From contig MGFX01000002.1 in assembly GCA_001792115.1 (NCBI GenBank), positions 4,965 through 68,964 of the forward strand: 64,000 nucleotides of DNA. The letters run 5' to 3'. The translations under genes and the position numbers were made by a program. Below are positions 9,578-64,000 of the stretch, piece by piece. This DNA is from Candidatus Woesebacteria bacterium RBG_16_42_24 (GTDB lineage: Bacteria > Patescibacteriota > Microgenomatia > UBA8517). The notes under the pieces were generated by a model. It did no database searches, was not told the DNA's origin, and worked only from the letters and a program-made list of their open reading frames with translations. The number at the start of each line of letters is the position of its first letter. Within the stretch, counting starts at the first letter, position 1.

Positions 9578-10216
9578 TTAAACGGCACCCTTGCCCGATA
9601 TCATCGCCCAGGGAGTCTTAAGAAGAATCAGGAGGTCAAAAAGGAGTGACTTTTTCCTGGCATAGAAAGCATCCATCTCGATTCTCTTATCGAAATTCAC
9701 TTCGCTCCTGCCCGTAACTTGCCAGTATCCGGTAATTCCTGGCCTAACAGAGAGAGCCTCTCTGAGAAGCTTTTTTGTTTGGGGATATTTAGCCGTCTGT
9801 TCCTCAAGTTCGTCGGGGTAATACGGACGAGGCCCGACAATACTCATTTCTCCCTTTAGAACATTAATAAATTGGGGGACCTCATCTATAGAGTGTTTCC
9901 TTATAAATTTACCTACGGTCGTTACTCTAGGATCTTCAAAGAGTTTATAACTTGATTTTTTATACTGGTGGTACAATTTTTTTAATTTGGGGTCGGTCTT
10001 TAAAAGGCTGTGGGCGTTAAGTATCATCGAACGGAATTTAAAAGGGTGAAAAAGTTTGCCATTTTTTCCAACTCTTTTGGGGGTATCGGCGAAAACCGGA
10101 CCCGGTGAGCTTATTTTTATTGCTATTGCAGTTGCCAAAATGACTGGGGAAAAAACAATAACAAGAACGACAGCTCCCACCAAATCTATTAATCTTTTCG
10201 CAAACTCGTAATTCAT
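9578..10216 (-). CDS. Polyprenyl-phosphate sugar-1-phosphate transferase (bacterial sugar transferase, PglC/WbaP C-terminal-domain type); priming enzyme
   Basis: KRLIDLVGAVVLVIVFSPVILATAIAIKISSPGPVFADTPKRVGKNGKLFHPFKFRSM...DEVPQFINVLKGEMSIVGPRP, canonical motifs. Confidence 0.85.
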   Translation of the reverse strand: MNYEFAKRLIDLVGAVVLVIVFSPVILATAIAIKISSPGPVFADTPKRVGKNGKLFHPFKFRSMILNAHSLLKTDPKLKKLYHQYKKSSYKLFEDPRVTTVGKFIRKHSIDEVPQFINVLKGEMSIVGPRPYYPDELEEQTAKYPQTKKLLREALSVRPGITGYWQVTGRSEVNFDKRIEMDAFYARKKSLLFDLLILLKTPWAMISGKGAV

Positions 10217-10237
10217 ACTGGGCAGGCAGAGATTATA

Positions 10238-11386
10238 CTACAAAAGCTCTTTTCTTTTCTCGGCCTTGAGCTGTTCGACTATCTTTTTAACCGATTGGGC
10301 ACTACTTCTCTTGCAGACAAGAAGGATGTCTTTTGAATCTACTATTGCTATATCGTCAACGTCGACAATTGCAATTAGCCTCCCATCCATATGAACCAAA
10401 GTTTGGGTAGTATCAATATTTATTACCCTACCCCCGGGTTCTTCACCGTCGATAATGACATTTTTATTCTCGTCTTTGGGCAAATTTTCCCAAACTTCGT
10501 TCCAATCCCCAATGTCAGTCCAATGGTAGTTAGCAACTACCAAGAGAATATTTTTTGCCTTTTCCGAGACGGCATAGTCAATTGACATTGCCTTGCCATC
10601 CTTTGTTTTATCAGGGATTCCCTCGTACTCTCGTAGTATTACTTTTTCTTCATCTGGAGAGCCAATGGCTTTATAAATATTATCAATCGCAGCTCCTACT
10701 TCTGGTTCAAACTGCCTTAACGCTTTTAGGTAAGTATCTGCTCTAAAAACGTATTCGTTGGCGTTCCAGAAATAAAGCCCCGTTTTGTTAAACTTCTCTG
10801 CCATCTCGAGTGATGGCTTTTCAATGAAACCTTCAAACTCATAGACTTCCTCTCCCTCAAACTCCCCAAATTTCTTTCCCTTTTTAATGTGCCCATAACC
10901 GGTACCGGGGTAAGTCGGCTTTATCCCGACTGTAACTATCCAGTCCCCGCCGTATGCTGCGGCTGCTCCCGCCATTAAGGTTTTAAAATAGGTACTCTCC
11001 GGTTTTACCAAGTGATCTGCCGATTCATTTAATATGACGGCGTCTTTATCAATCTTGTGGATGTAAGCCGCACCGATTCCGTGAGCTGGAGCCGTATTTT
11101 TCCTTAGAGGCTCGACTATTATATTTTCGGGAAGAATCTGGGGTACCTCCTTCAGAATCTCTTTTTTATAAGATTCCGAAACCGTGACAACAAAAAGCTT
11201 GTCCCATGGCAAAATTTCTTTAAATCTGTGCGCCGTTATTTGGGTAAGAGTTTTACCTCCGAATAGTTTGAGAAATTGCTTTGGGACGGCATTTCTTGAT
11301 TTTGGCCAGAGTCTTGTACCTCCACCCCCTGCGACAATTAATGCGAATAAATGTTCTTTGTAACTATCCATTGAAATTATTGACAA
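10238..11386 (-). CDS. Mannose-1-phosphate guanylyltransferase (GDP-mannose pyrophosphorylase), ManC/CpsB-like
   Basis: ALIVAGGGGTRLWPKSRNAVPKQF nucleotidyltransferase signature plus a C-terminal cupin-like extension. Confidence 0.75.
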   Translation of the reverse strand: MSIISMDSYKEHLFALIVAGGGGTRLWPKSRNAVPKQFLKLFGGKTLTQITAHRFKEILPWDKLFVVTVSESYKKEILKEVPQILPENIIVEPLRKNTAPAHGIGAAYIHKIDKDAVILNESADHLVKPESTYFKTLMAGAAAAYGGDWIVTVGIKPTYPGTGYGHIKKGKKFGEFEGEEVYEFEGFIEKPSLEMAEKFNKTGLYFWNANEYVFRADTYLKALRQFEPEVGAAIDNIYKAIGSPDEEKVILREYEGIPDKTKDGKAMSIDYAVSEKAKNILLVVANYHWTDIGDWNEVWENLPKDENKNVIIDGEEPGGRVINIDTTQTLVHMDGRLIAIVDVDDIAIVDSKDILLVCKRSSAQSVKKIVEQLKAEKRKELL

Positions 11387-12473
11387 CTTCTAAAAATTTA
11401 TTTTTAAAAACGTCCTTTGAAAATCGCTCGGCGGATTCGACTATTTTACCTCTATCAAACGACATTTTTTCAAAATCTTTAACCGCTTTAGTCAAACCCG
11501 CTACCGTCTGCTTTTCAAAAAAGACCCCATTTGCACCCTCAATAACCGTATCGAGCGCGCCCCCGGCTTTGTATGCAACAGTCGGCGTGCCAGCCGCGTG
11601 GGCCTCAACAACCACTTTGCCAAAATCTTCCTCCTGCGGGAAGATTAAAGCCCGCGCCTTACTATAGTAATTAGAAAGCTTACTATCTGTCAATTTACCC
11701 AAGAATTTAATATTGCCTTTTGCCATCTTTTTTAGTCTACTTTCCTCGCTCCCTTTCCCAACGATAATAAGCGGAAGCCCAAGCTTATTAAAAACTTCAA
11801 CAGCCAGGTCGGCCCTTTTATAAGGAACTAATCTGGAAACCAATAAGAAAAAGGGCGAATTTGCGTTCACTACATTACTATATAGTATTGTAGTATTTAG
11901 GCTCGGTTTTTTAAAAAATGAAACGTCGACGGGCGGATGTATAAGCAGGGAGTCCCTTTGGTAATACCTTTTTATTCTCGCTTGCACGGTACTTGATATC
12001 GCAACCAAAAGATCTGGCCTTTGAGCGGCAATTTTATCCCATTTCCTAAGATAAGAAACGGCCGTGGCTGCTATAGCTTTAAAGGTCGGACCTTTAAAGT
12101 AGTTGTTATAGCCGCTCCATAGGTAGCGGGTTGGGGTCAGACAAAAACAAATATGTCTGGTCCTGGGCTTTGTGATGATACCCTTGGCGGCCTCGCTCGT
12201 TACCGAAACCACCAAGTCGTACTCTGAAAAGTCAAAAGACTCAAAAGCCAAGGGCATAAAGGTTCCCAAATATTCGTGCCTTTTGGGCAGAAAGGGAATT
12301 TTTTGCAAGAAAGAGGGAACTACTTTGGGAAAAACTTTAGCCCAAGGAGCTCCTTGTAACGAATAGAGTGAAGTGTATAGAGGAGCATCCGGAAAAAGCT
12401 CGTGAAGAGTGAGAAGGTCGCGCTCGGCTCCTCCCCACTTATTGACCCTATCGTAAACGAGCGCAACTTTCAT
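11364..12473 (-). CDS. Glycosyltransferase family 4 (GT-B)
   Basis: LVSRLVPYKRADLAVEVF...IVGKG...EDFGKVVVEAHAAGTPTVAYKAGGALDTV, an EX7E-type GT4 C-terminal domain. Confidence 0.8.
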   Translation of the reverse strand: MKVALVYDRVNKWGGAERDLLTLHELFPDAPLYTSLYSLQGAPWAKVFPKVVPSFLQKIPFLPKRHEYLGTFMPLAFESFDFSEYDLVVSVTSEAAKGIITKPRTRHICFCLTPTRYLWSGYNNYFKGPTFKAIAATAVSYLRKWDKIAAQRPDLLVAISSTVQARIKRYYQRDSLLIHPPVDVSFFKKPSLNTTILYSNVVNANSPFFLLVSRLVPYKRADLAVEVFNKLGLPLIIVGKGSEESRLKKMAKGNIKFLGKLTDSKLSNYYSKARALIFPQEEDFGKVVVEAHAAGTPTVAYKAGGALDTVIEGANGVFFEKQTVAGLTKAVKDFEKMSFDRGKIVESAERFSKDVFKNKFLEVVNNFNG

Positions 12474-13578
12474 ATATTTGAAGTGTCTCTTTCGCCATTT
12501 TATTCCAAGAATATCTTTTTACAAAATCGCGGGCTTTTGAAATCCTGGCCTCCCTCTCATTTCCCTCCATTCCCAAAGCTAACTCCATTGCCTTGGCAAT
12601 TGAAGAAAAATCAAAGGGATTAAAATAAATCGCGTGACAATCGTAAACCTCCTTAAGAACCGGAATTTGAGATGCGAGGACCAAAGTTCCAACTTCCATG
12701 GCATCAAGTCCGGGTATTCCAAACCCTTCGGATAACGATGGGAGAGTTAAAGCTGCCGAGTGTTTGTAAAGGGTTCCCATTTCCTTATTTGGCAAAAATC
12801 CGAGAACTTTGACGAAAGCGCCTGCTCCCATTTCGGCAATTAACTTCTCAAGTTTTTTGACGAAGAAATTCCTGGCAGAAACTATTACCAGGTGGGCTTT
12901 CACCTTGCGCTCTGTATTAAGAGAAATAGTCGCCTCAATTAATCTTTTTAAATTTTTATGGGGATAGGCATTTCCTGTGTAAATAAAATAGGGTGTTTCA
13001 ATTGCGTACTTTTTTAGAAGGAGCGAAATTGGACCTCCGCCAGATAAATCACTCACCCCCTCGTAGGTAACCAGAACCTTATCAGGGTCAAGGCTGTAGT
13101 AGTCTACCAGTTCTTTTTTCACGGACTCGCTTGGAACAATAATTTTAACTGGTCTTTTAACCGCCCTATCAAAAACAGCCCTGTAACCTAGGCGTTTAAT
13201 AAGGTACACGATGGGAGAAAGTGTGGTTGCCTCAAGTCCCTTCTTCTTATGCATCAGTAAATCGTGGATTGTTACCACATAGCTTCCTTTATAGATGATG
13301 GGTACGTTGAAATGGGGAAAATGAACAAGATCCGGCTTCTCTTTGGTAAGCAGCCTGGGAAGTGTTATTTGTTCGGCAAAAGAATATTGACGAAAATCCC
13401 CTTTAACTTTCTTGAAATTTGGTGGTAGAAGTAAACGTTTAAAATAGTTATCCCTTAATATGACAGTGTAATCATTTTTATTGTCAATTTTTACCAGATT
13501 ATCCGTAAGGTTCATTACATAAACGCCTATTCCGGTATGTTCTATTCCATACATTCTGGCGTCGATTACAATTTTCAC
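12448..13578 (-). CDS. Glycosyltransferase family 4
   Basis: FIYTGNAYPHKNLKRLIEA...LPSLSEGFGIPGLDAMEVGTLVLASQIPVLKEV. Confidence 0.8.
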   Translation of the reverse strand: MKIVIDARMYGIEHTGIGVYVMNLTDNLVKIDNKNDYTVILRDNYFKRLLLPPNFKKVKGDFRQYSFAEQITLPRLLTKEKPDLVHFPHFNVPIIYKGSYVVTIHDLLMHKKKGLEATTLSPIVYLIKRLGYRAVFDRAVKRPVKIIVPSESVKKELVDYYSLDPDKVLVTYEGVSDLSGGGPISLLLKKYAIETPYFIYTGNAYPHKNLKRLIEATISLNTERKVKAHLVIVSARNFFVKKLEKLIAEMGAGAFVKVLGFLPNKEMGTLYKHSAALTLPSLSEGFGIPGLDAMEVGTLVLASQIPVLKEVYDCHAIYFNPFDFSSIAKAMELALGMEGNEREARISKARDFVKRYSWNKMAKETLQIYESCARLR

Positions 13579-14474
13579 TTGAAGTAAACTCCTATGGTTC
13601 TATAAAGTTTGACCAATCTAATTCCTAAAACAACCAGAAGATTTAGGGCGAGAGGATACTTCTCCCACATATGTTTCCTGTAAAAAATCTCCATTGAGGA
13701 AACCCCTGTAGCACGAAAGTGTAGCCTTTTATCTTTTTCGACACTCAAAGCATGCAAGCCTTTACCTTTAGAAACACCCTTTATATGAGTAATATTGACT
13801 TTCGGGAAGTACATTATTTTCCATCCCGCCGCTTTTATTCTCCAACATAGGTCAATATCTTCCCCGTCTAAAAAATAATCCTCATCGAACCACCCGACTT
13901 CATCGAGTACACGCTTTCTAACTAAAAAGAAGGCTCCCTGAAGTGCGTCAACCTCATGCGCCGTATCCTCATTGATATACCCGTACCAATATTTGGCCAA
14001 GATTCGAGAGTGTGGAACTATTCTGTCTAGCCGTAAGATTAGGTGGGTAAGTGCCACCCAGGGCGTAGGAAAGGAGCGTCTCGCGTCTTTATCCAATTTT
14101 CCATTTGGCAATACTATCTTGCAAGTCAACGCCCCGAGATTTGAATTGTCATCAAGGTACTTAACGGTTTCTTTTAGAGTACTTTTAGGAACAATCGTAT
14201 CAGGATTTAAAAAAAGAATATATTCTCCTTGCGTGTAAGGTTTTGCTTTATTATTTCCAGCGGCAAAACCTAAGTTTTTATCATTGTCTACTAATTTTAC
14301 CCAGTCAAATTTCTCCTTAATCGCCTCAATAGTACCGTCGGTTGAGCCGTTGTCTGACACAATCGCCTCGAAATCGACCTCGCCCCTCACCTGACTTAGA
14401 GAGTTAAGGCAATCTGACAAGACTTGTTTGGTATTGTGACTCAAAATGACTATTGAGAGCTTAGGAATTTTCAT
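13575..14474 (-). CDS. Glycosyltransferase family 2 (GT-A)
   Basis: LSIVILSHNTKQVLSDCLNSL...IVSDNGSTDGT...GFAAGNNKA...ILFLNPDT. Confidence 0.8.
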   Translation of the reverse strand: MKIPKLSIVILSHNTKQVLSDCLNSLSQVRGEVDFEAIVSDNGSTDGTIEAIKEKFDWVKLVDNDKNLGFAAGNNKAKPYTQGEYILFLNPDTIVPKSTLKETVKYLDDNSNLGALTCKIVLPNGKLDKDARRSFPTPWVALTHLILRLDRIVPHSRILAKYWYGYINEDTAHEVDALQGAFFLVRKRVLDEVGWFDEDYFLDGEDIDLCWRIKAAGWKIMYFPKVNITHIKGVSKGKGLHALSVEKDKRLHFRATGVSSMEIFYRKHMWEKYPLALNLLVVLGIRLVKLYRTIGVYFK

Positions 14475-15670
14475 TTAGAGGAAACTACACTTGCATAAAT
14501 TGGGTCGTGGAGTTTTACGATAACTCTCCAATCAAAATATTTATGTACGTGGTTTTGGCCTTTTTCTCCTATATAATTAGCCAGCTTGGGGTTTTTGATT
14601 AACCTCACCGCTTCCCGAGCAAGAGCTTCATCGCTATCTGCAATAAGCGCCTGTTCCCCGTGGGTAATATGTAAGCCCGCAACTCCAATCGAGGTTGATA
14701 CAACGGGAAGACCGGCAGCCATGGCTTCCAATATTTTTAAGCGTGTCCCTCCCGCCCCTTTAATTGGCGCAACCATGATAGTAGCGCTTGCATAAGCGTC
14801 TCTTGCGTCGGGAATATTTTCGGTGACCTCAACGCTCTCGTCACTCTCTGAAAGTCTTTTAATCCATTCTGGAATCTCCCTTCCTACTATCCACACTTTT
14901 GCGTTTGGAACTTCTTTTTTAACTTTCGGCCAAACTTTATTTAGCAAACTTTCTGACGCCTCCTGGTTCTGAAGCCATTCGAAATTGCTGACCCCATAAA
15001 GTATTCGGGGGGGAAGTTTCCTTTCCATTTTTTTTGCTGCATAAAACTCGGTGTCGACCCCGTTTGGAATTACATCGACTTTTACCCCTGGGATTAACTT
15101 AATCATCTCATTTCTATCCTCAGCCGAAACTGCTACTAATTTACTTGCTTTATTCCAGTAATGCTTCTCCCAATACTTAACTTTAACAACGTCATACATA
15201 TAAAAAGGCCTCAAGATACTAGGCACTTTAGTTTCCACATGGTGCTTATAAACATCGTGCCAAATTGTCTGCTCAACAAGAATGGTGGGTACATCAGTTC
15301 TTACAAGGTGTGGCATAACATAAAAAGTTTCTGCGTGGATTAAATCATACTTTTCATTGGCAAGTTCTTCTGAAATCGCACGTCTTTCCTGCAAGGAAAA
15401 ATTTCTAATAACTAAAAGTGGGAATGGTCCGAAGAATGAAAGTAGTACATTTCTTAGGGTCCAAGGCTTTTTTGGTCTATCAAAGACCATTACTTTTTTA
15501 CAATATTTTTTTAATTCGGGGATGAACTTTTCTTCTGAAGTATCTTTGGCGAGGGAAAAAAGAGTAATGTCATGTTTTTTTGACAAATATTTAATAATGT
15601 TATACCAACGAGTCTGCCCTCCACTGGTGTCAGGTTTTGGCAGATAAGGAACGAGCATCAATATTTTCAT
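14471..15670 (-). CDS. Glycosyltransferase family 4
   Basis: VWIVGREIPEWIKRL...IMVAPIKGAGGTRLKILEAMAAGLPVVSTSIGVAGL. Confidence 0.8.
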   Translation of the reverse strand: MKILMLVPYLPKPDTSGGQTRWYNIIKYLSKKHDITLFSLAKDTSEEKFIPELKKYCKKVMVFDRPKKPWTLRNVLLSFFGPFPLLVIRNFSLQERRAISEELANEKYDLIHAETFYVMPHLVRTDVPTILVEQTIWHDVYKHHVETKVPSILRPFYMYDVVKVKYWEKHYWNKASKLVAVSAEDRNEMIKLIPGVKVDVIPNGVDTEFYAAKKMERKLPPRILYGVSNFEWLQNQEASESLLNKVWPKVKKEVPNAKVWIVGREIPEWIKRLSESDESVEVTENIPDARDAYASATIMVAPIKGAGGTRLKILEAMAAGLPVVSTSIGVAGLHITHGEQALIADSDEALAREAVRLIKNPKLANYIGEKGQNHVHKYFDWRVIVKLHDPIYASVVSSK

Positions 15671-19915: not shown

Positions 19916-19924
19916 TTCAAAGAA

Positions 19925-20527: not shown

Positions 20528-20529
20528 TT

Positions 20530-21660: not shown

Positions 21661-21665
21661 TATTT

Positions 21666-51692: not shown

Positions 51693-51769
51693 AAAATTCT
51701 TGTTTCATTTTCATTGAATTTTTCAAGAGGGGTCTCCTCTTTTTCTTTAGACATAATGGAATTATAGCA

Positions 51770-51894
51770 GCATTCGAGAAGACTGCCGATCTTCGGTCGG
51801 GAGATGAACCTGCCTGCCGGCAAGGCTGGTTGAACGCTGATATGTCATCCTCCTTTAGAGGGAACCCCATTCAAAGCGGGGAGGATGTCATAAA
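51770..51894 (-). repeat. Structured interspersed repeat element, copy 3 (about 125 nt, minus orientation), in the intergenic region
   Basis: The reverse complement reads tttatgacatcctccccgctttgaatggggttccctctaaaggaggatgacatatcagcgttcaacc...ttctcgaatgc, which aligns end to end with copy 2. Confidence 0.7.
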
Positions 51895-51933
51895 CTTACC
51901 AGATATGAGTTAAAAGTGTGGTGTTTAGCTATA

Positions 51934-58511: not shown

Positions 58512-59365
58512 TTTCTTAAATATCTAATATATGCCCGCGGAAATCTTAATGCTGAAAAAAATGAAAATATTATCCCCTGAAACCCATCCAAAATTCCTTT
58601 GTGTCGAAGAAGAGTAAGAAAAAACCACCAAATTGGTTTAACTAAAACATAATTTAAAAATTGCCAAATGCTTTTTTCTAAATTCTCTTTTTTCATATCC
58701 GTAACTATCAAGTCGATGTAATAACTATTCCTCTTAAGATATCTGGAGAACGTTGGGTCGGCCATATGTATAAGATCGTTTTGAAGCCATCCCACCTTCC
58801 CGTCAACTGCCATCACCTCGTGCACACTTTTTGCTGGAAAGTGGGCTTTTCCTTTTTTAACTAATCTGATTACTCCGTCCGGGTAGACTCCCCCATAGCG
58901 CAGGTATTTGCCCAGAAAATAATTTAGCCTGGGAATAAAAAAACCGGCATATACCCCTTCTTTTCCAACTGCCCCATCTCTTTCCTCAATAAGCTTTTGG
59001 TGACGCAAAAAAAGCCTACGATTTGTTAAAGTCTCCTGGTATTTATGTATTTCCTCATCCGACATCCCAATTACCCTTCGGATTTCTTCGGCAAGACTAG
59101 GAGTTACCCTTTCGTCAGCATCCAGCTGTAGTATCCATTCACCTTGAGCCTCCTCAAGCGCCTTTTGTTTAGTTATATGAAAAATTGGCGAATGTTTGAC
59201 TTTAATAACTCTCGCGCCGAAAGATTCCACAATTTCCAGAGTCTTATCCCTCGACTCCTCATCCACCACAACAATTTCGTCGGCTATCCCTTTAATCGAG
59301 GAGAGGCATTCCCCAATATTTTTCTCCTCGTTTCTCACTGCTAAAACTACAGATAATTTCGTCAT
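58508..59365 (-). CDS. Glycosyltransferase family 2
   Basis: LSVVLAVRNEEKNIGECLSSIKGIADEIVVVDEESRDKT...ILQLDADERV. Confidence 0.7.
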   Translation of the reverse strand: MTKLSVVLAVRNEEKNIGECLSSIKGIADEIVVVDEESRDKTLEIVESFGARVIKVKHSPIFHITKQKALEEAQGEWILQLDADERVTPSLAEEIRRVIGMSDEEIHKYQETLTNRRLFLRHQKLIEERDGAVGKEGVYAGFFIPRLNYFLGKYLRYGGVYPDGVIRLVKKGKAHFPAKSVHEVMAVDGKVGWLQNDLIHMADPTFSRYLKRNSYYIDLIVTDMKKENLEKSIWQFLNYVLVKPIWWFFLTLLRHKGILDGFQGIIFSFFSALRFPRAYIRYLRK

Positions 59366-59366: not shown

Positions 59367-60644
59367 TTATCTCGATTGTATCACCATATTTGCGGCTTTT
59401 TCTCCAAGCTCAACCGCATAATTGGTCCCTCTATCCCAAGGGTAAACCTGCTGGATGTTTGTAAGAAACAAGCCTTCTATGGGAGTTTTTATTTGCGGCA
59501 TTATTTTAGAGTAATTTAAAGGAACAATTGGCTGGGCAAAAGGAGCTGTAAATTTATTGGCTTCCATTACCCAATTTTGTCTAAACTCCGGGTTTATCTT
59601 TTGCAAATATGGTAAAAATAATTCAAAAAGTTCTCTCGGCTCTTTGGAATAGAAAGGATGATCCTGGGGGAGGTAGTTTCCAACATAGATAATGTGATTT
59701 CCACCGTAATATCTCTTGTCCATGAAATTGGTGTGTTCCACAACCGCCAAAAAAGGAAAATTTTCTTCACTTACATTCAACCAATATATGTCGTTTTTAA
59801 GAAACTCTCTTTTTAGAACAAGCATTAAGTTAACGGCCCCTATACCTTTAAAGGAAAGGAGTCTTTGGGAGTAAGGTTCGGGGAGATCCTGGACGATATT
59901 TGCAAAAGAGGCGTATGGAAGCGTACAGATAACTTTGTCAAATTCGAATCTTCCTTTATCCGTCAATACTTCCAGTTTAGAATCTACCTTCGTTATTTTT
60001 TCAACCCTGGTTTTGTATAAAATCCTTCCTTTATTTTGCCTAATTAATGCATCAAGCCTAGTTGCAAATTTTAAAAATCCTCCCTCGGGGTATCCCAGAG
60101 ATGAGCTTCTTTTTTTAATTCTCGCCCAAAACCACGAGGCCGGAATTTGGTCTGCAAAATGGCTGAATTTTTTTTCAAAAAGTGGTCTCCATAGCATATC
60201 CCAAGTTTTCTCGCCGTTATATTTTGCCAGAAACCTCCTCGCTGTAACTTTCTCAAGAGGTTTCCAAAATGGAGTAAGTTTTAAAAAGGCTAAAACTAGA
60301 CCGGTGCGAATTCTATCTAATAATGACAATTTATCAAATAGCATAAGGCTTTGGGGGGAATCCAGCTGGTAAATTGTCCCCTTAATAAAGGTCGAAGTTT
60401 TTGTCGGCAAATAAATATATTTGTGCCCAGTCTCTTTAGCCAATTTCCTAATTGCAAAGTCGGAATAAAACCAATGATGGTAATGCTTCTCCAAACTCCA
60501 CTTCCACCCTTTTTTAGTAAACCCTACCGCAAGGCCCCCGGGATAGTCCTCTCCCTCAAAGACAGTAACTTCGAATCCTTGCTTGGTTAGTCTATGAGCT
60601 GCCGCCAACCCAGTGAATCCCGCACCGATTATTCCAATATTCAT
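59367..60644 (-). CDS. FAD/NAD(P)-binding oxidoreductase (amine oxidase/HemY-like fold)
   Basis: MNIGIIGAGFTGLAAAHRLTKQGFEVTVFEGEDYPGG, a dinucleotide-binding GxGxxG with a downstream GG. Length 425 aa. Confidence 0.55.
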   Translation of the reverse strand: MNIGIIGAGFTGLAAAHRLTKQGFEVTVFEGEDYPGGLAVGFTKKGWKWSLEKHYHHWFYSDFAIRKLAKETGHKYIYLPTKTSTFIKGTIYQLDSPQSLMLFDKLSLLDRIRTGLVLAFLKLTPFWKPLEKVTARRFLAKYNGEKTWDMLWRPLFEKKFSHFADQIPASWFWARIKKRSSSLGYPEGGFLKFATRLDALIRQNKGRILYKTRVEKITKVDSKLEVLTDKGRFEFDKVICTLPYASFANIVQDLPEPYSQRLLSFKGIGAVNLMLVLKREFLKNDIYWLNVSEENFPFLAVVEHTNFMDKRYYGGNHIIYVGNYLPQDHPFYSKEPRELFELFLPYLQKINPEFRQNWVMEANKFTAPFAQPIVPLNYSKIMPQIKTPIEGLFLTNIQQVYPWDRGTNYAVELGEKAANMVIQSR

Positions 60645-60648: not shown

Positions 60649-62310
60649 CTAATTAGCTACAGCCTCGAAATAAAGATATCCGTTTGTCCCGTATATCCTT
60701 TTAACAATATTTGCCTCATTCGGTATTTCCTCGTCGGTTCCTACAATTAAACTCCCGGGGTTTTGGGGTTTAATAGTGTCAAAATCTATCGGCACAAATT
60801 CGTATTTGCCAAAACTTCTGACTGTTGAAAAGCCATATTTATCTTTTGCCGTAAGCGTATGTTCCAACTGAAACTTTTGGGGTGGGTATTTTAAATAAAA
60901 AAGGAAAAGAATATAAGGCTGGTCGTAGCGATCAGTAACTATTATCTTCTGGTTCGCTTTCTCCTTAGTATAGCTTACCAACTCCTTTACCCCATACTGC
61001 GATGAGAAGGGAAACTCCTTAGCCATATGGACCCAATACATATGCTGATACCTGGCAAAACCCCAGATTATCAAGACCCCAAGCGCCAAATAACCCCATA
61101 ATCGAATTTTCCTTAGATTGTTAAGCCATGAAAGGGTTGTCATAAGACCATATGCACTGATTACAGTTAATGGAATCGCCATATTTTGGGCCCTTAGGGC
61201 GTGGGGAGACTGAAAAGTCAACGCCGAAGCGGTTGGAGCCAACAAAAGCCACACTAAAATCACTCCCCAACCCTGCCTGCCGGCAGGCAGGCTTTTAGAA
61301 CTCTTGGCAATTGCCAAAAGACCGACAATCAAGAAAAGTATGTCAAATAAATACATCTGCCCCGTTTCGGGAACCTTATCCCTCTCAATGGCGTCTCCCG
61401 TAAGGAAAAGGAATTCTCCCCAGAAATGCTGCGAATAGTTTTGGGCAAAGGCCAATGAGTAATTAACCACCTTGTTGTGAATGGCTTTAGGGACAAAAGC
61501 CAAATAGTCTTGGTGCTCTCCGCGCTGCTCGTTAATCCTCGAAAGAGGCCCGGGATCCGCAAAAAGGCCGACCCCTGCAACCCTTGAACCCACCTCCCCT
61601 TTCGCAATATCAAAACCCAAGGGGGCAAGTAAAATTAATGCTGCAATTCCTGAAATAATAAAGGATTTAATGTCTGGACGGATTTCTTTACGGTAAATAA
61701 GACCCAAACCAATGACTAGTAAGGGCACAACTACCCTTGCGGCGTGGTAAGTATATAGGGACAGTACAAAGCTGATAGTACATAGGGCATAGTAGTTTGG
61801 ATTTTTAAGCCCTTTCAAATACAGTAAAAGACCAAGGCTAATAAAAAAAGTGGCTACATTTACTTCCCAACCGCCTCTCGAGAAGTGTATGTGCCAGGGC
61901 GAGATTGCAAGGAAAAGCGCTGCAAACTCGCCAATTTCCAATTTCCAATTTCCAATTTCCAATTTTTTATCCGGAAACAGTTCTCTACACAGAAAATAAA
62001 CGACCAGAACGGTGGCAACGCCAAAGAGGGCTCCCGGAATTCGGACTGCGAGCTCACTTAGTCCTAATACTTTTACAAATGGCAAAACTAAATAGAAATA
62101 GAGACCAGGTTTGTAATCGTTGAACGACTGAAAATGGATTGGCCAGGCATTTCCATGCTCGTCTTTGCCAGTTTCGATTAGAGAGTAGGCATTATAGCCA
62201 ATTGCCGCCTCATCGGCATTAAGTGCTGGATAGGAACCAAGTCTCCAAAACCGTAAAAAAGAGGCTAACAGCAATATTAAAAACAGTAGTAACTTTCTTT
62301 TTCTTAACAT
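60649..62310 (-). CDS. GT-C fold glycosyltransferase, PMT_2 family (bacterial dolichyl/polyprenyl-phosphate-mannose protein-mannosyltransferase-like)
   Basis: FLRFWRLGSYPALNADEAAIGYNAYSLIETGKDEHGNAWP, an N-proximal DE motif. Contains (CCAATTT)4 at 61931-61958 encoding KLEIGNWKLEIG, and the 20-bp palindrome at 61274-61293. Confidence 0.65.
   Translation of the reverse strand: MLRKRKLLLFLILLLASFLRFWRLGSYPALNADEAAIGYNAYSLIETGKDEHGNAWPIHFQSFNDYKPGLYFYLVLPFVKVLGLSELAVRIPGALFGVATVLVVYFLCRELFPDKKLEIGNWKLEIGEFAALFLAISPWHIHFSRGGWEVNVATFFISLGLLLYLKGLKNPNYYALCTISFVLSLYTYHAARVVVPLLVIGLGLIYRKEIRPDIKSFIISGIAALILLAPLGFDIAKGEVGSRVAGVGLFADPGPLSRINEQRGEHQDYLAFVPKAIHNKVVNYSLAFAQNYSQHFWGEFLFLTGDAIERDKVPETGQMYLFDILFLIVGLLAIAKSSKSLPAGRQGWGVILVWLLLAPTASALTFQSPHALRAQNMAIPLTVISAYGLMTTLSWLNNLRKIRLWGYLALGVLIIWGFARYQHMYWVHMAKEFPFSSQYGVKELVSYTKEKANQKIIVTDRYDQPYILFLFYLKYPPQKFQLEHTLTAKDKYGFSTVRSFGKYEFVPIDFDTIKPQNPGSLIVGTDEEIPNEANIVKRIYGTNGYLYFEAVAN
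61274..61293 (+). repeat. 20-bp perfect palindrome CCTGCCTGCCGGCAGGCAGG inside the PMT_2 ORF. A near-copy lies at 51811-51826 in the intergenic region.
   Basis: It is its own reverse complement. 51809-51826 reads acctgcctgccggcaagg, a 16/17 match, immediately adjacent to repeat-element copy 3. Confidence 0.6.
61931..61958 (+). repeat. Heptanucleotide tandem repeat (CCAATTT)x4 within a coding sequence
   Basis: ccaatttccaatttccaatttccaattt. A unit length of 7 is not a multiple of 3, so a change of one unit would frameshift the PMT_2 gene. Confidence 0.8.
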
Positions 62311-63165
62311 CTATTTGACCAACAATAAACCCAAAAGACCCAGAAGGGATCCTACAATCTTCCAAATAATTCTCTTTCTTTCATTAAGAAAAAGAATCGC
62401 AAAAATCACAGTTACGACAACACCTATGGAATTTAAAGAAATTACTTGTGATGAATTTTCCGTAATCTGCAATGCATAGAAAAACAAAATTATAGACGCT
62501 GCATAGAATAAACTTAAGGTCGCCATTCTAACAAATCTTTCCTTCACTAGAAAAACTTTCATGTTTTTAATCCTGCCAGAGTAAAATGCTAGAATCGACA
62601 ATGCTGGAAGGACAAATCCAAGGAATGAGTACGGGAAAACGTCAAAGTGTCTAAGGAGAAATCTGTCGTTGACAACGGCAAATCCGTAAAACATTGCAGC
62701 CAAAAGAGCATAAATTTCTTTAAAGGAGAATTTAATTTTCTTTGTTTCCAAAGATACAATAACTGCAGCAGAAAGAATAAGCAACGTACCTATCCATTGT
62801 GAAACCGTAAGAGTTTCCTTCATTAGAAGCGAAAAAGCCAATACTGCAATAATTGCCCTGGAACTAAAGATGACAGAAAATTTTGATGCCTCGGTTTTTT
62901 TTAATGCTTTAAACACAAAAATGTTACCAAGTGCGTAAAGAACTATCATTAATAAAAAGTTCAATATTAAGGGCTTGAAATCAGGGTACTTCATTGAGGT
63001 AAATAAATAGCCGAAAATCCCTATCATTAGTCCCGTTAACAGTTGAGAGAAAGAAGCATAAGCCACCGGGTCACTGCCCTTTTCCGTGACCAGTATTCTT
63101 TGCAGCAATACCGAGACAGAATAACAAATAACGCTCAAAATAATTAGTATTTGCCAAGTCACCAT
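62311..63165 (-). CDS. EamA/DMT-superfamily transporter-like membrane protein
   Basis: A 10-TM protein with two internal repeats of EamA-like helices. Confidence 0.5.
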   Translation of the reverse strand: MVTWQILIILSVICYSVSVLLQRILVTEKGSDPVAYASFSQLLTGLMIGIFGYLFTSMKYPDFKPLILNFLLMIVLYALGNIFVFKALKKTEASKFSVIFSSRAIIAVLAFSLLMKETLTVSQWIGTLLILSAAVIVSLETKKIKFSFKEIYALLAAMFYGFAVVNDRFLLRHFDVFPYSFLGFVLPALSILAFYSGRIKNMKVFLVKERFVRMATLSLFYAASIILFFYALQITENSSQVISLNSIGVVVTVIFAILFLNERKRIIWKIVGSLLGLLGLLLVK

Positions 63166-64000
63166 TATTTAGCCTCCATTATCAAAAACGCCAGCGAACC
63201 GTCGGGCCTAAGGACCTCTTCAAGAATTCTATAATCTACTAAAACACGATCTTTTGGGGCAACCACCTCATCGGCGACTACTACTGTGCCACTAGGAAAT
63301 TTAAACGGCCAACTCAAGAACTGAAAGCTTAAGTTTTTATACTCGCTTACCAACCCGACGTCGCCGACGCTGCTGGGCTCATAAACCGCACTTTCCCAAA
63401 ACTCTCGCGAGTCCTCCTTCCAATAGAAAAGGAAATAAATAAAAGGCTGGGCGTAAGACTGCTGAAAAACTATTTCTCGCGAGTCCAAACCTGACTCCTT
63501 TAAATATTCAACTGCCTCTCTATACCCATATTCCCAGTATTTGGCTGAGTGCGTTGGGAGGTGCACAAAGTAAGAATCCAGATAGTACAAATAGTTCAGA
63601 AAATATAATGCCACAAATGCCAAAACGGCTATTTTTATTAAAGTGCCCTTGAACAATTTCTCAAAAAAGCCATAAAGCGCCAAAGAAGAAACAACAATTA
63701 GCGGGATAACCATTTGAATACTCCTTACCCCATGAACAGGATCCCTTGACAATATTGAAGGTATGGGTGCAAGTACCAGCCAAAGAAGAATAAATAAGAA
63801 ATATTTATTCTTGATGTTTCGGACAAACTTAACAAGCCCCGCCAAAATTAAAATGGAATCGGCCAATAAAAACATCCCCATATTTGGCGGGCTATGTCGG
63901 GGGTTATTCCAATCGCCCTCAAAGAATAGAAACCTTCCCGAAAAATGATTAAACCACTTTCCCGCAATCACCCTTGCCCAGTTCAGAGTCTCCGTATGAA
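63165..64000 (-). CDS. GT-C/PMT_2-like membrane glycosyltransferase, C-terminal portion. The gene continues beyond the window end.
   Basis: The frame stays open upstream of the GTG at 63971 through position 64000. FFEGDWNNPRHSPPNMGMFLLADSILILAGL resembles the ...FLTGDAIERDKVPETG...DILFLIVGL region of ORF 60649..62310, a likely paralogue. Confidence 0.5.
   Translation of the reverse strand, partial: HTETLNWARVIAGKWFNHFSGRFLFFEGDWNNPRHSPPNMGMFLLADSILILAGLVKFVRNIKNKYFLFILLWLVLAPIPSILSRDPVHGVRSIQMVIPLIVVSSLALYGFFEKLFKGTLIKIAVLAFVALYFLNYLYYLDSYFVHLPTHSAKYWEYGYREAVEYLKESGLDSREIVFQQSYAQPFIYFLFYWKEDSREFWESAVYEPSSVGDVGLVSEYKNLSFQFLSWPFKFPSGTVVVADEVVAPKDRVLVDYRILEEVLRPDGSLAFLIMEAK

What the first reader, a model, noticed from the sequence alone, without database searches (positions are those of the whole stretch)
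9578..64000. ~55-kb co-directional glycan megacluster with ≥10 GT-C/PMT-like membrane enzymes and three polyprenyl-P-sugar synthases: candidate novel, heavily tailored surface glycan or protein O-glycosylation system
Between the priming transferase (9578) and the window end there are about 9 GT4 and about 10 GT2 genes, Wzx- and Wzy/WaaL-like proteins, ManC, and at least 10 polytopic proteins with N-proximal DE/DD acidic motifs typical of GT39/GT83 (PMT/ArnT) enzymes. Three of the GT2s look like polyprenyl-phosphate-sugar synthases (50628..51692 with C-terminal TMs; 54655..55302 with DUF2304; 55299..56057), and these make exactly the lipid-linked donors that GT-C enzymes use. The presence of ManC points to a mannose-based system. 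Seven SAM methyltransferases (one CmcI-type sugar O-MTase), a NodU/CmcH carbamoyltransferase, an acetyltransferase, an AsnB amidotransferase and an FAD oxidoreductase indicate methylated, carbamoylated, acetylated and amidated sugars. The number of GT-C paralogues in one locus is unusual. The assembly pathway (Wzx/Wzy plus multiple periplasmic GT-C steps, possibly protein O-mannosylation) is not a described system for this kind of organism.
Basis: inference. Interest (0 to 1): 0.7.

Follow-up and report, generated by a model that had tools for sequence, protein, structure and literature searches.

The report
Giant GT-C-rich surface-glycan locus in Woesebacteria
A tiny-genome groundwater bacterium (Candidatus Woesebacteria) devotes at least 65-75 kb to one operon-like locus that appears to build a heavily decorated surface sugar polymer, largely with 16 or more membrane-embedded GT-C enzymes working outside the cell. 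The first 15 kb of the locus is conserved across the whole Microgenomates group.

Summary
Window 9578-64000 holds 52 tightly packed genes, 48 on the minus strand. They include one priming phosphoglycosyltransferase, ManC, 7 GT4, 9 GT2 (3 resembling polyprenyl-phosphate-sugar synthases, one paired with a GacJ/Rv3632-type DUF2304 protein), Wzx, a Wzy_C protein, 7 methyltransferase-like genes, and carbamoyl-, acetyl- and amido-transferases. There are 12 GT-C-type membrane glycosyltransferases: 10 well supported, GTC5 moderately and GTC9 weakly. The last is cut by the window end. Another contig of the same organism shows four more tandem GT-C genes and a second AsnB just beyond it.

The organism is Candidatus Woesebacteria RBG_19FT_COMBO_42_9 (Rifle aquifer). 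RecO-DUF4012-PGT-ManC-GT4/GT2-GTC1-Wzy_C-AcT-GT4 (window 7041-22742) keeps its gene order in 48 of 50 Microgenomates loci. In many relatives Wzy_C is fused to a GT-C domain.

Best reading: a polyprenol-linked, Wzx-flipped glycan is handled by Wzy_C and then elaborated outside the membrane by GT-C enzymes using polyprenyl-P-sugar donors. This resembles several three-component systems stacked together, or mycobacterial arabinogalactan/LAM assembly. PMT-type protein O-mannosylation is not supported. En-bloc protein O-glycosylation by Wzy_C stays open. It is a new variant of a known kind.

The parts
1766..2851 (+). LCP (LytR-CpsA-Psr) glycopolymer transferase. It is a candidate ligase to peptidoglycan and lies outside the operon.
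   Evidence: Pfam LytR_cpsA_psr 116.8 bits. TIGR00350 98 bits, above the 62.3 cut-off. Its adjacency was not seen in relatives.
7041..7586 (-). RecO (short, 181 aa). It is the last gene of the conserved syntenic block.
   Evidence: RecO_N 77 bits. Present in 41 of 50 related loci.
7583..9568 (-). DUF4012 protein. It has one N-terminal TM helix and a large extracytoplasmic domain, and is a conserved partner of the PGT.
   Evidence: DUF4012 82 bits. Present in 47 of 50 loci. About 60 invariant residues in 22 orthologues. No PDB relative.
9578..10216 (-). Small monotopic polyprenyl-phosphate phosphoglycosyltransferase (priming enzyme).
   Evidence: Bac_transf 201 bits. TIGR03025 249 bits over the catalytic domain.
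10238..11386 (-). ManC, mannose-1-phosphate guanylyltransferase without a PMI domain.
   Evidence: NTP_transferase plus ManC_GMP_beta-helix. TIGR01479 282 bits over residues 2-352.
11364..12473 (-). GT4a.
   Evidence: Glycos_transf_1 96.7 bits. Present in 48 of 50 loci.
12448..13578 (-). GT4b.
   Evidence: Present in 49 of 50 loci.
13575..14474 (-). GT2a.
   Evidence: Glycos_transf_2 77 bits. Present in 38 of 50 loci.
14471..15670 (-). GT4c.
   Evidence: Present in 50 of 50 loci.
15667..17136 (-). GTC1, the core GT-C glycosyltransferase.
   Evidence: PMT_2 50 bits and PMT 32 bits. AF2 pLDDT 87.3. Foldseek hits to STT3, ArnT, ALG12 and PglB at E 1e-8 to 1e-6. Invariant D41, W42, H43, R46, Q47, D49, E89 and H336-D337. 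Present in 50 of 50 loci.
17126..18481 (-). Wzy_C-family protein (polymerase, ligase or O-OTase-like). It overlaps GTC1 by 11 nt.
   Evidence: Wzy_C 51 bits. Fused to a GT-C domain in 33 of the top 150 family representatives.
18456..19370 (-). GT2b.
19370..19915 (-). u181, a conserved unknown protein with an N-terminal TM helix.
   Evidence: No Pfam hit. Orthologues found in 28 of the 50 full-flank loci.
19925..20527 (-). WcaF-like hexapeptide O-acetyltransferase.
   Evidence: Hexapep. NF007797 96 bits. Present in 50 of 50 loci.
20530..21660 (-). GT4d.
21666..22742 (-). GT4e, the end of the conserved core.
   Evidence: Present in 49 of 50 loci.
22739..24148 (-). GTC2.
   Evidence: PMT_2 31 bits. 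hhalign 99.2% to the GTC16 family. DE motif at residue 27.
24145..25974 (-). u609. It has a signal anchor, a roughly 380-aa outside domain (faint DUF3863) and 6 C-terminal TM helices. Function unknown.
   Evidence: It is not GT-C by hhalign.
25971..26810 (-). GT2c, with 2 C-terminal TM helices.
   Evidence: Best PDB hits are ordinary Leloir GT2s.
26835..28295 (-). GTC3.
   Evidence: PMT_2 45.8 bits. hhalign 98.9%.
28292..29311 (-). GT4f.
29308..30690 (-). GTC4.
   Evidence: PMT_2 20.3 bits, below the cut-off. hhalign 95.5% to the GTC1 family using a 13-sequence profile.
30759..32645 (+). AsnB-type glutamine amidotransferase of the EPS-associated kind.
   Evidence: Asn_synthase 309 bits. TIGR03108 546 bits.
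32625..34097 (-). GTC5, moderately supported.
   Evidence: PMT_2 26.8 bits. phmmer E 7.5e-7 to GTC8. hhalign only 44.8%. DD motif at residue 65.
34098..34889 (-). SAM methyltransferase MT1.
34865..35704 (-). GT2d.
35789..37090 (-). Wzx (MOP flippase).
   Evidence: Polysacc_synt 70.7 bits. NF007773 MOP flippase.
37171..37914 (-). MT2.
37911..39389 (-). GTC6.
   Evidence: PMT_2 23.2 bits. hhalign 93.4%.
39390..40169 (-). MT3.
40223..41188 (+). u321, a methyltransferase-like protein with an N-terminal Cys-rich segment.
   Evidence: phmmer E 4e-7 to MT3.
41185..41976 (+). DUF5672 protein.
   Evidence: 181 bits.
42001..42708 (+). CmcI/rhamnosyl O-methyltransferase family protein.
   Evidence: RMNT_CmcI 206 bits.
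42734..44065 (-). GTC7.
   Evidence: PMT_2 32 bits. hhalign 92.6% to the u475 family.
44065..45039 (-). u324, an unknown membrane protein and paralogue of u343.
   Evidence: phmmer 25 bits.
45052..45768 (-). MT4.
45765..46796 (-). u343, an unknown membrane protein.
46786..48213 (-). GTC12 (u475), a GT-C with no Pfam hit. Its true start is probably 48168.
48152..49948 (-). NodU/CmcH-type carbamoyltransferase.
   Evidence: Carbam_trans_N and Carbam_trans_C. NodU 128 bits.
49945..50631 (-). MT5.
50628..51692 (-). PPS1, a putative polyprenyl-P-hexose synthase with 4 C-terminal TM helices.
   Evidence: AglJ 82 bits, dolichyl-P-hexose transferase 62 bits and PpgS 53 bits. PfDPMS 5mlz aligned over residues 6-211. 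TM helices.
51934..53430 (-). GTC8. This is the type fused to Wzy_C in Levybacteria.
   Evidence: PMT_2 24.4 bits. hhalign 95.8%. The fusion C-terminal domains match it at 99.1%.
53427..54212 (-). GT2e.
54278..54658 (-). DUF2304 small membrane protein (GacJ/Rv3632 type), a putative activator of PPS2.
   Evidence: DUF2304 55 bits. Literature basis.
54655..55302 (-). PPS2, a PpgS/GacI-like polyprenyl-P-HexNAc synthase.
   Evidence: NF058614 PpgS 114 bits over the full length. PfDPMS is the top PDB hit.
55299..56057 (-). PPS3, a DPMS/GtrB-like soluble catalytic subunit.
   Evidence: PfDPMS 62 bits and GtrB 56 bits are the top PDB hits. A PPS3-like gene lies next to the core in 13 of 50 loci.
56073..57386 (-). 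GTC9, a weakly supported GT-C of ALG10/PIG-V/GT87 type.
   Evidence: DIE2_ALG10 24 bits, E 2.8e-5, below the cut-off. 8 TM helices and the motif 'FDGEHYAAIAHQGY'. Not supported by hhalign or PDB search.
57429..58511 (-). GT4g.
58508..59365 (-). GT2f.
59367..60644 (-). FAD amine-oxidase/phytoene-desaturase-like oxidoreductase.
   Evidence: Amino_oxidase 89 bits. NF005560 422 bits.
60649..62310 (-). GTC10, the first member of a six-gene tandem GT-C subfamily.
   Evidence: PMT_2 27.9 bits and PMT 22.8 bits. 27-36% identity to the five upstream paralogues.
62311..63165 (-). EamA/DMT transporter, a candidate flippase for polyprenyl-P-sugar.
   Evidence: EamA 98 bits. Its position inside the GT-C array is kept in the sister genome. 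The role is inferred.
63165..64000 (-). GTC11, the C-terminal half of a 555-aa GT-C cut by the window end.
   Evidence: The frame is open to base 63998. It aligns to residues 278-480 of GTC10. The full gene is seen in L087.

Best explanation
The locus encodes a polyprenol-linked pathway for a complex cell-envelope heteroglycan of a Microgenomates (Candidatus Woesebacteria) bacterium.

Inside the cell:
- ManC supplies GDP-mannose.
- A small monotopic phosphoglycosyltransferase primes polyprenyl phosphate.
- Up to 7 GT4 and 6 ordinary GT2 enzymes build a lipid-linked oligosaccharide.
- Acetyl-, methyl-, carbamoyl- and amido-transferases tailor it.
- Wzx flips it across the membrane.

Outside the cell:
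- A Wzy_C-family protein polymerises or transfers the glycan. It works with GT-C enzymes: it is translationally coupled to GTC1 here and physically fused to a GT-C domain in relatives.
- At least 16 GT-C transferases in the whole locus add further sugars from polyprenyl-phosphate-monosaccharide donors.
- Three DPMS/GtrB/PpgS-like GT2s make these donors, one of them with a GacJ-type DUF2304 helper.
- The EamA protein probably flips the donors.
- The finished glycan is probably fixed to the wall by an LCP transferase.

In logic this is several three-component glycosylation systems stacked on a Wzx-dependent core, similar to mycobacterial arabinogalactan/LAM assembly.

Shown here: the family and fold assignments, the synteny and the fusions. 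Inferred: the order of steps, the donors, the flippase role, polymerisation versus transfer, and the final acceptor.
For: - Gene families come from Pfam and NCBIfam.
- Acidic loop-1 motifs (DE, DD, D-x7-D) are present in most candidates.
- PPS1-3 match AglJ, PpgS, PfDPMS, GtrB and ArnC best. Control GT2c matches ordinary Leloir GT2s. No GT2 has QxxRW.
- DUF2304 is the family of GacJ and Rv3632, which stimulate GacI and PpgS (10.1101/180810).
- Operon-like packing.
- The core keeps its gene order in 48 of 50 Microgenomates loci. A PPS3-like gene lies next to the core in 13 of the 50 full-flank loci (mainly Levybacteria-type).
- Rosetta-stone fusions of Wzy_C with a GT-C domain: L045 has Pfam Wzy_C plus PMT_2. 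33 of the top 150 family representatives are 900 aa or longer. Their C-terminal halves match GTC8 at 99.1% and the GTC1 family at 98.1%.
- An LCP gene lies 7 kb upstream.
- Three-component systems with GT-C are an established mechanism (PMC11127046).
Against: - No biochemical data exist for any protein of this lineage.
- No Wzz/PCP co-polymerase and no GtrA-family flippase were found.
- The Wzy_C family also contains ligases and O-oligosaccharyltransferases, so polymerisation is not shown. A profile search found no solved relative.
- LCP adjacency was not seen in relatives within the 10-kb flanks.
- GTC9 is weakly supported and GTC5 moderately.
- A 65-75 kb locus may encode more than one product.
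- The acceptors of the GT-C enzymes are unknown and could include proteins or lipids.
Confidence: 0.6

Rival explanations
1. General protein O-glycosylation by en-bloc transfer. The conserved core builds a roughly 8-10-sugar lipid-linked oligosaccharide. The Wzy_C protein acts as an O-oligosaccharyltransferase (PglL/PilO/WsaB-like) and puts it on S-layer protein, pilins or other surface proteins. The GT-C enzymes then extend or decorate the protein-bound glycan.
For: - The Wzy_C family includes O-OTases (established knowledge).
- The core has one PGT plus about 8 Leloir GTs. This is long for a polymerised repeat unit but typical of en-bloc glycans.
- No Wzz/PCP was found.
- The tailoring set (AsnB, MTs, carbamoyltransferase) resembles S-layer and general O-glycan loci (from memory).
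- The core is invariant across a whole class rather than hypervariable like O-antigen or capsule loci.
- CPR genomes have been suggested to make glycoproteins or glycosylated S-layers (PMC3812714).
Against: - No acceptor protein gene lies in the locus.
- No PglL_A or other OTase-specific domain was detected.
- An LCP gene is nearby.
- Sequence alone cannot separate ligase from polymerase.
Confidence: 0.25
2. PMT/Pmt-type direct protein O-mannosylation. Each GT-C transfers single mannoses from polyprenyl-P-mannose to Ser/Thr of secreted proteins, as in actinobacterial Pmt.
For: - PMT_2 and PMT Pfam hits, and DE motifs in loop 1.
- ManC and DPMS-like synthases are present.
Against: - No PMT_4TMC domain in any candidate.
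- PMT_2 is a broad family that also covers ArnT-like lipid and glycan transferases.
- The Foldseek hits of GTC1 to Pmt1/2/4 are weaker (E 2.5e-4 at best, most about 2e-3 or weaker) than those to STT3 and ArnT.
- GT-C genes are interleaved with lipid-linked glycan genes, and GT-C domains are fused to Wzy_C.
- Sixteen or more paralogues at 25-36% identity or less argue for many distinct acceptors or linkages rather than one protein mannosylation step.
Confidence: 0.07
3. Several juxtaposed pathways rather than one system. The conserved core makes one glycan. The 22.7-75 kb extension encodes one or more separate products, for example a lipoglycan built wholly outside the cell by the tandem GT-C array (LM/LAM-like). 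These products merely share an operon and the polyprenyl-P-sugar donors.
For: - Core and extension differ in conservation and in GC content, 0.40-0.42 against 0.32-0.39.
- The single Wzx lies in the extension.
- The tandem six-gene GT-C subfamily, with its own EamA and AsnB, recurs as a module next to other GT sets in Daviesbacteria and another relative.
Against: - Packing is continuous and co-directional, with 4-nt overlaps across the core/extension boundary.
- There is only one PGT and one Wzx in 55 kb.
- GTC8-type domains from the extension are fused to the core Wzy_C in other lineages.
Confidence: 0.3

Closest known systems
Three-component extracytoplasmic glycosylation systems (GtrA/GtrB/GtrC of Shigella/Salmonella; CsbB/GtcA/YfhO; GacI-GacJ-GacK-GacL of Streptococcus pyogenes; GT136 pentofuranose systems, PMC11127046)
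   Same: - A GT2 polyprenyl-P-sugar synthase, in one case with a DUF2304 (GacJ-type) helper.
- A small or medium membrane transporter candidate.
- GT-C transferases acting on an already exported glycan.
   Different: - Known systems have one GT-C per locus, and a genome holds one to three such systems. Here there are at least 16 GT-C genes and 3 synthases in one operon-like locus.
- No GtrA-family or MATE flippase is present, only an EamA candidate.
- The core GT-C is coupled or fused to the Wzy_C protein. I found no description of such a coupling for the known systems.
Mycobacterial arabinogalactan / LM-LAM assembly (WecA, GlfT1/2, Ppm1, PpgS-Rv3632, EmbA/B/C, AftA-D, MptA-C, PimE, Lcp1)
   Same: - A cytoplasmic lipid-linked primer followed by extensive extracytoplasmic building by many GT-C enzymes.
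- Donors are polyprenyl-P-monosaccharides.
- A PpgS plus DUF2304 pair is present.
- An LCP ligase is encoded in the neighbourhood.
- GT-C numbers are comparable (from memory, about 15-20 in M. tuberculosis).
   Different: - The mycobacterial genes are scattered across the genome, whereas here they form one locus in a genome of about 1 Mb.
- The priming enzyme is a Bac_transf type, not WecA.
- A Wzx and a Wzy_C protein are present.
- No DPA (decaprenyl-P-arabinose) genes are present.
- The sequences are not orthologous, with Foldseek E-values to Emb and Aft of only 1e-5 to 1e-1.
Wzx/Wzy-dependent O-antigen, capsule and EPS loci
   Same: - A PGT, Leloir GTs, a Wzx, a Wzy_C-family protein and tailoring enzymes in one co-directional cluster.
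   Different: - No Wzz/PCP and no export machinery.
- The core is conserved in gene order across a whole class instead of being hypervariable.
- A DUF4012 protein occupies the place next to the PGT.
- GT-C content is massive.
S-layer and general protein O-glycosylation loci of monoderm bacteria (WsaP/WsaB of Geobacillus, WsfP/WsfB of Paenibacillus) and PglL systems
   Same: - A Bac_transf priming enzyme, Leloir GTs, methylation and a Wzy_C-domain transferase (comparison from memory).
   Different: - Those loci have no or few GT-C enzymes.
- No acceptor protein gene has been identified here.
- OTase activity of the Wzy_C protein has not been tested.

Membership tests
GT-C fold glycosyltransferase superfamily | Polytopic membrane protein with the GT-C transmembrane core fold | tested here: met
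   - The GTC1 model hits only GT-C structures.
- hhalign gives 92-99% for GTC2, 3, 4, 6, 7 and 8, with negative controls at 2% or less.
- GTC5 reaches 44.8% and GTC9 15%, so both are inconclusive.
GT-C fold glycosyltransferase superfamily | Conserved acidic residue or residues in the first extracytoplasmic loop | tested here: met
   - GTC1 has invariant D41, D49 and E89 in 81 orthologues.
- DE is present in GTC2, 10, 11 and 13-16. DD is present in GTC5 and GTC8. D147-E148 is invariant in the u475 family.
- The motif is not clear in GTC4, GTC6 and GTC7.
GT39 protein O-mannosyltransferases (PMT/Pmt) | PMT N-terminal domain together with the C-terminal PMT_4TMC domain (and MIR domains in eukaryotes) | tested here: not met
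   There are only PMT_2 hits and weak PMT hits (up to 32 bits). No PMT_4TMC or MIR hit occurs in any of the 60 ORFs.
GT39 protein O-mannosyltransferases (PMT/Pmt) | Transfer of mannose from polyprenyl-P-Man to Ser/Thr of proteins | not testable with these tools
   This needs biochemistry or glycoproteomics.
GT83 ArnT | Transfer of L-Ara4N to lipid A, with arn operon context (ArnA, B, C, D, E, F) | tested here: not met
   - The fold is similar (5ezm E 2.5e-7).
- No ArnA, ArnB or ArnD genes are present.
- Other CPR genomes (SR1, WWE3, TM7, OP11) were reported to lack lipid A genes (PMC3812714); this genome was not checked.
- The ArnC equivalog score is 36-40 bits against a cut-off of 529.
STT3/PglB/AglB oligosaccharyltransferases | WWDxG motif in the C-terminal periplasmic domain | tested here: not met
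   None of the 16 GT-C sequences has the motif. This holds although STT3 is the top Foldseek hit for GTC1.
Polyprenyl-phosphate-sugar synthases (DPMS/GtrB/ArnC/PpgS/AglJ-type GT2) | GT2 catalytic domain most similar, along its full length, to known members | tested here: met
   - PPS2: PpgS 114 bits over positions 2-221 of 226, and PfDPMS is the top PDB hit.
- PPS3: PfDPMS 62 bits and GtrB 56 bits are the top PDB hits.
- PPS1: AglJ 82 bits, and PfDPMS aligned over residues 6-211.
- All scores are below the equivalog cut-offs, so the sugar specificity is not assigned.
- Control GT2c behaves differently.
Polyprenyl-phosphate-sugar synthases (DPMS/GtrB/ArnC/PpgS/AglJ-type GT2) | Membrane anchoring through C-terminal TM helices or a small membrane partner | tested here: met
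   - PPS1 has 4 C-terminal TM helices.
- PPS2 overlaps a DUF2304 gene by 4 nt.
- PPS3 has neither, so it may share the partner or be peripheral.
Processive GT2 synthases (cellulose/chitin/hyaluronan-synthase-like) | QxxRW motif and a multi-TM channel | tested here: not met
   No QxxRW motif occurs in any of the 9 GT2s.
Wzx/Wzy-dependent polysaccharide pathway | PGT, Wzx flippase and Wzy polymerase | tested here: inconclusive
   The PGT and Wzx are clear. A Wzy_C domain is present at 51 bits, but that family also holds ligases and OTases. No solved relative was found by profile search.
Wzx/Wzy-dependent polysaccharide pathway | Wzz/PCP chain-length regulator | tested here: not met
   No Wzz hit occurs among the 60 ORFs. 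The DUF4012 protein, of unknown function, sits beside the PGT.
Three-component glycosylation system | Dedicated flippase for the polyprenyl-P-sugar (GtrA family, ArnE/F-type, or MATE) | tested here: inconclusive
   There is no GtrA or MATE hit. An EamA/DMT protein (98 bits) lies inside the GT-C array, and this position is kept in the sister genome. u128 (4 TM helices) has no family.

The most novel reading that the evidence does not exclude
Microgenomates possess a lineage-defining, probably essential wall glycopolymer made by a previously undescribed assembly module. In this module a Wzy_C-type enzyme and GT-C glycosyltransferases form one machine, fused into a single roughly 1000-aa protein in many lineages. 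Most of the polymer is then built outside the cell by a relay of up to 16 or more GT-C enzymes using polyprenyl-P-sugars. This would be an independent, operon-encoded counterpart of mycobacterial arabinogalactan/LAM assembly in an ultra-small episymbiotic bacterium. The DUF4012 protein would act as a new conserved extracytoplasmic enzyme of the pathway.
Probability: 0.25. Interest if true: 0.8.

Novelty: new variant of a known kind. Interest (0 to 1): 0.62.

Why it matters
CPR/Patescibacteria are a large part of bacterial diversity. Those cultivated so far live attached to host cells (PMC11623550), and their envelope chemistry is essentially unknown.

This organism spends roughly 5-9% of its genome on one glycan locus: at least 65-75 kb, compared with the 0.8-1.6 Mb complete Microgenomates chromosomes seen. 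The first 15 kb keeps the same gene order across the class. Both points mark the product as a central surface structure. It is a likely determinant of host attachment, phage recognition and envelope integrity.

The recurrent Wzy_C::GT-C fusions give a concrete, testable prediction of a physical complex between two enzyme classes that are usually thought to act separately. The locus also offers a compact natural library of divergent GT-C enzymes and polyprenyl-P-sugar synthases for glycoengineering. It is also a set of marker genes (GTC1, Wzy_C, DUF4012) for Microgenomates.

Tried and rejected
- **Transporters instead of GT-C:** rejected by fold searches and hhalign, with Wzx, EamA and Wzy_C as negative controls.
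- **GT2c (2 C-terminal TM helices) as a fourth polyprenyl-P-sugar synthase:** not supported, because its best PDB hits are ordinary Leloir GT2s.
- **Processive synthases:** no QxxRW motif.
- **STT3-type OST:** no WWDxG motif.
- **Recent tandem duplication or assembly artefact:** rejected. Paralogues are at most 36% identical. Identical genes occur on 21-24 independent contigs.
- **Searches that led nowhere:**
  - Profile searches of Wzy_C and DUF4012 against PDB sequences.
  - PDB sequence searches of GTC9 and u609.
  - Pfam at E up to 5 for u181, u324, u343, u609 and u128.
  - No tRNA or Rfam family in the window.
- **Walking along the contig with locus-derived proteins:** The exact-match protein P0169 gave only a 5.4-kb contig.
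- **Pfam on 36 long Wzy_C proteins:** it saw PMT_2 in only one. The C-terminal GT-C domain was shown by hhalign instead.
- **Literature:** seven of the nine searches looked for, and none found, a description of the locus.

Full report
**What is in the window**

All 60 ORFs of 100 aa or more were scanned against Pfam. Selected ones were also scanned against NCBIfam. From 7041 to 64000 the genes are packed almost without gaps. Typical junctions are 4-nt overlaps, and the only gap over 100 nt is 241 nt between PPS1 and GTC8. All are on the minus strand except AsnB (30759-32645) and a three-gene unit (40223-42708).

- one small Bac_transf phosphoglycosyltransferase (201 bits);
- ManC;
- 9 GT2, plus one DUF5672 protein;
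- a Wzx (Polysacc_synt, 70.7 bits);
- a Wzy_C protein (51 bits);
- a WcaF-like acetyltransferase;
- an AsnB-type amidotransferase (TIGR03108, 546 bits);
- a NodU/CmcH carbamoyltransferase;
- five class-I SAM methyltransferases, a CmcI-type O-methyltransferase and one weak MT-like protein (u321);
- an FAD amine-oxidase-like protein;
- an EamA transporter;
- a DUF2304 protein.

No tRNA or Rfam family lies in the window.

**The GT-C enzymes**

Six candidates pass the PMT_2 gathering score and three fall just below it. One gives a weak DIE2_ALG10 hit. Three independent lines were added.

1. *Structure of GTC1.* An AlphaFold2 model of GTC1 (15667-17136) has pLDDT 87.3 and pTM 0.89. All of its significant Foldseek matches in the PDB are GT-C enzymes. 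These include STT3 at 1.7e-8, ArnT at 2.5e-7, then ALG12, PglB, DPY19, AftA and Pmt4.
3. *Profile-profile comparison.* The comparison links GTC2 (99.2%), GTC3 (98.9%), GTC4 (95.5%), GTC6 (93.4%), GTC7 (92.6%) and GTC8 (95.8%) to reference GT-C families. Wzx, Wzy_C, EamA, u609, u324 and u343 all score 2% or less.

GTC5 is only moderately supported: PMT_2 26.8 bits and phmmer E 7.5e-7 to GTC8. GTC9 is weakly supported: ALG10 24 bits and a PIG-V/GT87-like 'FDGEHYAAIAHQGY' motif. Most candidates carry an acidic motif just after the first transmembrane helix. None has the WWDxG motif of STT3-type oligosaccharyltransferases or a PMT_4TMC domain. The paralogues are old: phmmer E-values between them are 1e-7 at best.

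**The cluster runs past the window end**

The last ORF (63165-64000) is open to the end of the window. It aligns to residues 278-480 of GTC10. A contig of the same organism (L087) shows the complete 555-aa gene. Four further tandem GT-C genes (580, 559, 561 and 561 aa), a 264-aa unknown gene and a second AsnB follow it. Together with GTC10 these form a six-member subfamily with 24-36% identity. All carry 'xDE..GY.AYS...TG.D' after TM1.

In a sister genome the locus continues (CAYNFU010000001.1; GTC1 83% identical; the contig that also yielded L007). It adds an HD protein, a GT2, an unknown gene, another PMT_2 protein (31 bits), two methyltransferases and a GT4. The locus therefore spans at least about 65 kb in this organism. 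In the sister genome it spans at least about 70 kb and holds 16-17 GT-C genes.

**Organism**

u475 is 100% identical to a protein of Candidatus Woesebacteria bacterium RBG_19FT_COMBO_42_9. Identical genes occur on 21-24 contigs from Rifle aquifer metagenomes and on NCBI GCA_001792155.1. Complete Microgenomates chromosomes retrieved are 0.81-1.61 Mb. On that basis the locus is roughly 5-9% of such a genome.

**A conserved core and a variable extension**

Orthologues of GTC1 were found in 280 genomic stretches. The best 80 are from Woese-, Levy-, Blackburn-, Gottesman- and Curtissbacteria and unnamed Patescibacteria. Many are mis-titled 'uncultured Gammaproteobacteria'.

All window proteins were searched against the ORFs of these loci. 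The order RecO-DUF4012-PGT-ManC-GT4a-GT4b-GT2a-GT4c-GTC1-Wzy_C-GT2b-(u181)-AcT-GT4d-GT4e is kept widely. In 48 of the 50 loci with full flanks, at least 8 of 9 core genes are in the same order. Beyond GT4e the content is lineage-specific:
- GTC2, GTC4 and GT2f, or GTC2, GT2c, GTC3 and GT4f, in Woesebacteria;
- a PPS3-like synthase directly next to the core in Levybacteria.

The extension has lower GC, 0.32-0.39 against 0.40-0.42. Tandem arrays of the GTC10 subfamily recur elsewhere. A complete Daviesbacteria genome has five in a row, flanked by GT2, GT4 and Wzx genes. Another relative has at least five, with AsnB and a YfhO-type GT-C. Multi-GT-C glycan loci are therefore a trait of the group, and this Woesebacterium is an extreme case.

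**Wzy_C and GT-C are coupled**

In the window the two genes overlap by 11 nt. In 34 of the 80 loci the Wzy_C orthologue is a protein of 1000-1078 aa. In 17 of these, phmmer detects a GTC8-like C-terminal half. In a Gottesmanbacteria locus (L045) one 1051-aa ORF combines Wzy_C with GTC1, and Pfam confirms Wzy_C at 229-450 and PMT_2 at 644-797.

An exhaustive HMMER search of 1.84 billion representatives finds only 854 relatives of this Wzy_C subfamily. Of the best 150, 33 are 900 aa or longer. A profile of 29 of their C-terminal halves matches GTC8 at 99.1% and the GTC1 family at 98.1%, against Wzy_C at 0.4%. Pfam itself recognises PMT_2 in only one of 36. Such repeated, independent fusions argue that the two enzymes act together on one substrate.

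**The polyprenyl-P-sugar synthases**

- PPS2 (54655-55302) matches the PpgS model over its full length (114 bits). PfDPMS is its best solved relative. It overlaps a DUF2304 gene. DUF2304 is the family of GacJ and Rv3632, which stimulate GacI and PpgS (10.1101/180810).
- PPS3 has PfDPMS (62 bits) and GtrB (56 bits) as its top solved relatives.
- PPS1 matches AglJ, a dolichyl-P-hexose transferase and PpgS, and has four C-terminal TM helices.

The ordinary GT2c serves as a control and behaves differently. No GT2 has QxxRW. All scores are far below the equivalog cut-offs, so the sugars cannot be named.

**Mechanism proposed**

1. Cytoplasmic assembly takes place on polyprenyl phosphate, with the PGT, GT4/GT2 enzymes and tailoring enzymes.
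2. Wzx flips the lipid-linked glycan.
3. A Wzy_C/GT-C complex handles it on the outer face.
4. Many GT-C enzymes elaborate it further, using three kinds of polyprenyl-P-sugar. The EamA protein is the candidate flippase for these donors.
5. The glycan is finally fixed to the wall, possibly by the LCP transferase encoded at 1766-2851.

The family assignments, the synteny and the fusions are shown. The order of steps, the donors, the flippase role, polymerase versus ligase, and the acceptor are inferred.

The main rival is en-bloc protein O-glycosylation, with Wzy_C acting as an O-oligosaccharyltransferase. Three points favour it: there is no Wzz, the core is long and invariant, and the tailoring set resembles that of such loci. 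PMT-type direct protein mannosylation is the least supported reading.

**Comparison with known systems and novelty**

The parts belong to known kinds: Wzx-dependent pathways, three-component GT-C glycosylation (PMC11127046), GacI/GacJ and PpgS/Rv3632. The overall logic resembles mycobacterial arabinogalactan/LAM assembly.

The new elements are:
- the scale, with at least 16 GT-C genes in one operon-like locus of a very small genome;
- the class-wide conserved core, with a DUF4012 protein and RecO attached;
- the recurrent Wzy_C::GT-C fusions.

Earlier work noted only that CPR genomes are rich in glycosyltransferases (PMC3812714) and that DUF4012 is a CPR-enriched family shared with Gram-positive bacteria (PMC6744442). 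Seven literature searches found no description of the locus. I rate it a new variant of a known kind, with interest 0.62.

Noticed in passing
window 7041-9568; L008-L086: A short RecO (181 aa) overlaps the DUF4012 gene by 4 nt. It stays attached to the glycan core in 41 of 50 Microgenomates loci. This is an odd, conserved coupling of a DNA-repair gene with an envelope operon.
   Followed up: partly
window 7583-9568: The DUF4012 protein (661 aa, one N-terminal TM helix) has about 60 invariant residues across 22 orthologues, for example 'QND.ELRPTGGF' and 'RDMN.SPDF', which suggests an enzyme. It has no solved relative and no NCBIfam model.
   Followed up: partly
window 24145-25974; L007, L046, L083: u609 has a signal anchor, a roughly 380-aa outside domain with a faint DUF3863/3lm3 match, and six C-terminal TM helices. 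It is present in only a few relatives and its function is unknown.
   Followed up: partly
window 44065-45039 and 45765-46796: u324 and u343 are distant paralogues (25 bits). Both are membrane proteins with no family assignment, and they flank a methyltransferase gene.
   Followed up: no
window 6608-6994: u128 is a 128-aa protein with four TM helices and no family. Its size and topology resemble GtrA-type flippases, but no profile hit supports this.
   Followed up: partly
L052 3388-4362: A Fic/DOC plus HTH (DeoR-like) gene is inserted inside the conserved glycan core of a Levybacteria genome.
   Followed up: no
L010 14773-18923: Four extra genes are inserted between GT4b and GT4a in Woesebacteria MGGJ01. 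One of them carries a PEP-utilizers mobile domain.
   Followed up: no
L007, L009, L011 and many others: Many CPR MAGs in the genome collection are titled 'uncultured Gammaproteobacteria bacterium' (binchicken and SRP co-assemblies). Their gene content and best matches are Microgenomates, so the titles are misleading.
   Followed up: no
L088 (NCBI MGFZ01000028.1) against L087: In the NCBI assembly of the same organism no gene is called where L087 has GTC16 (728-2413) and GTC9. This may reflect frameshifts or strain variants.
   Followed up: no
L001 5345-6607 against window 20530-21660: One Rifle contig calls GT4d as a 420-aa protein with no Pfam hit, instead of 376 aa. This points to strain-level variation inside the conserved core.
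   Followed up: no
window 40000-52000: GC falls to 0.32-0.37 here, against 0.40-0.42 in the conserved core. This is consistent with later acquisition or faster turnover of the extension.
   Followed up: no
P0261, P0264, P0267, P0275 and others: Some homologues of the tandem GT-C subfamily carry precomputed weak STT3 (PF02516) hits in addition to PMT_2.
   Followed up: partly
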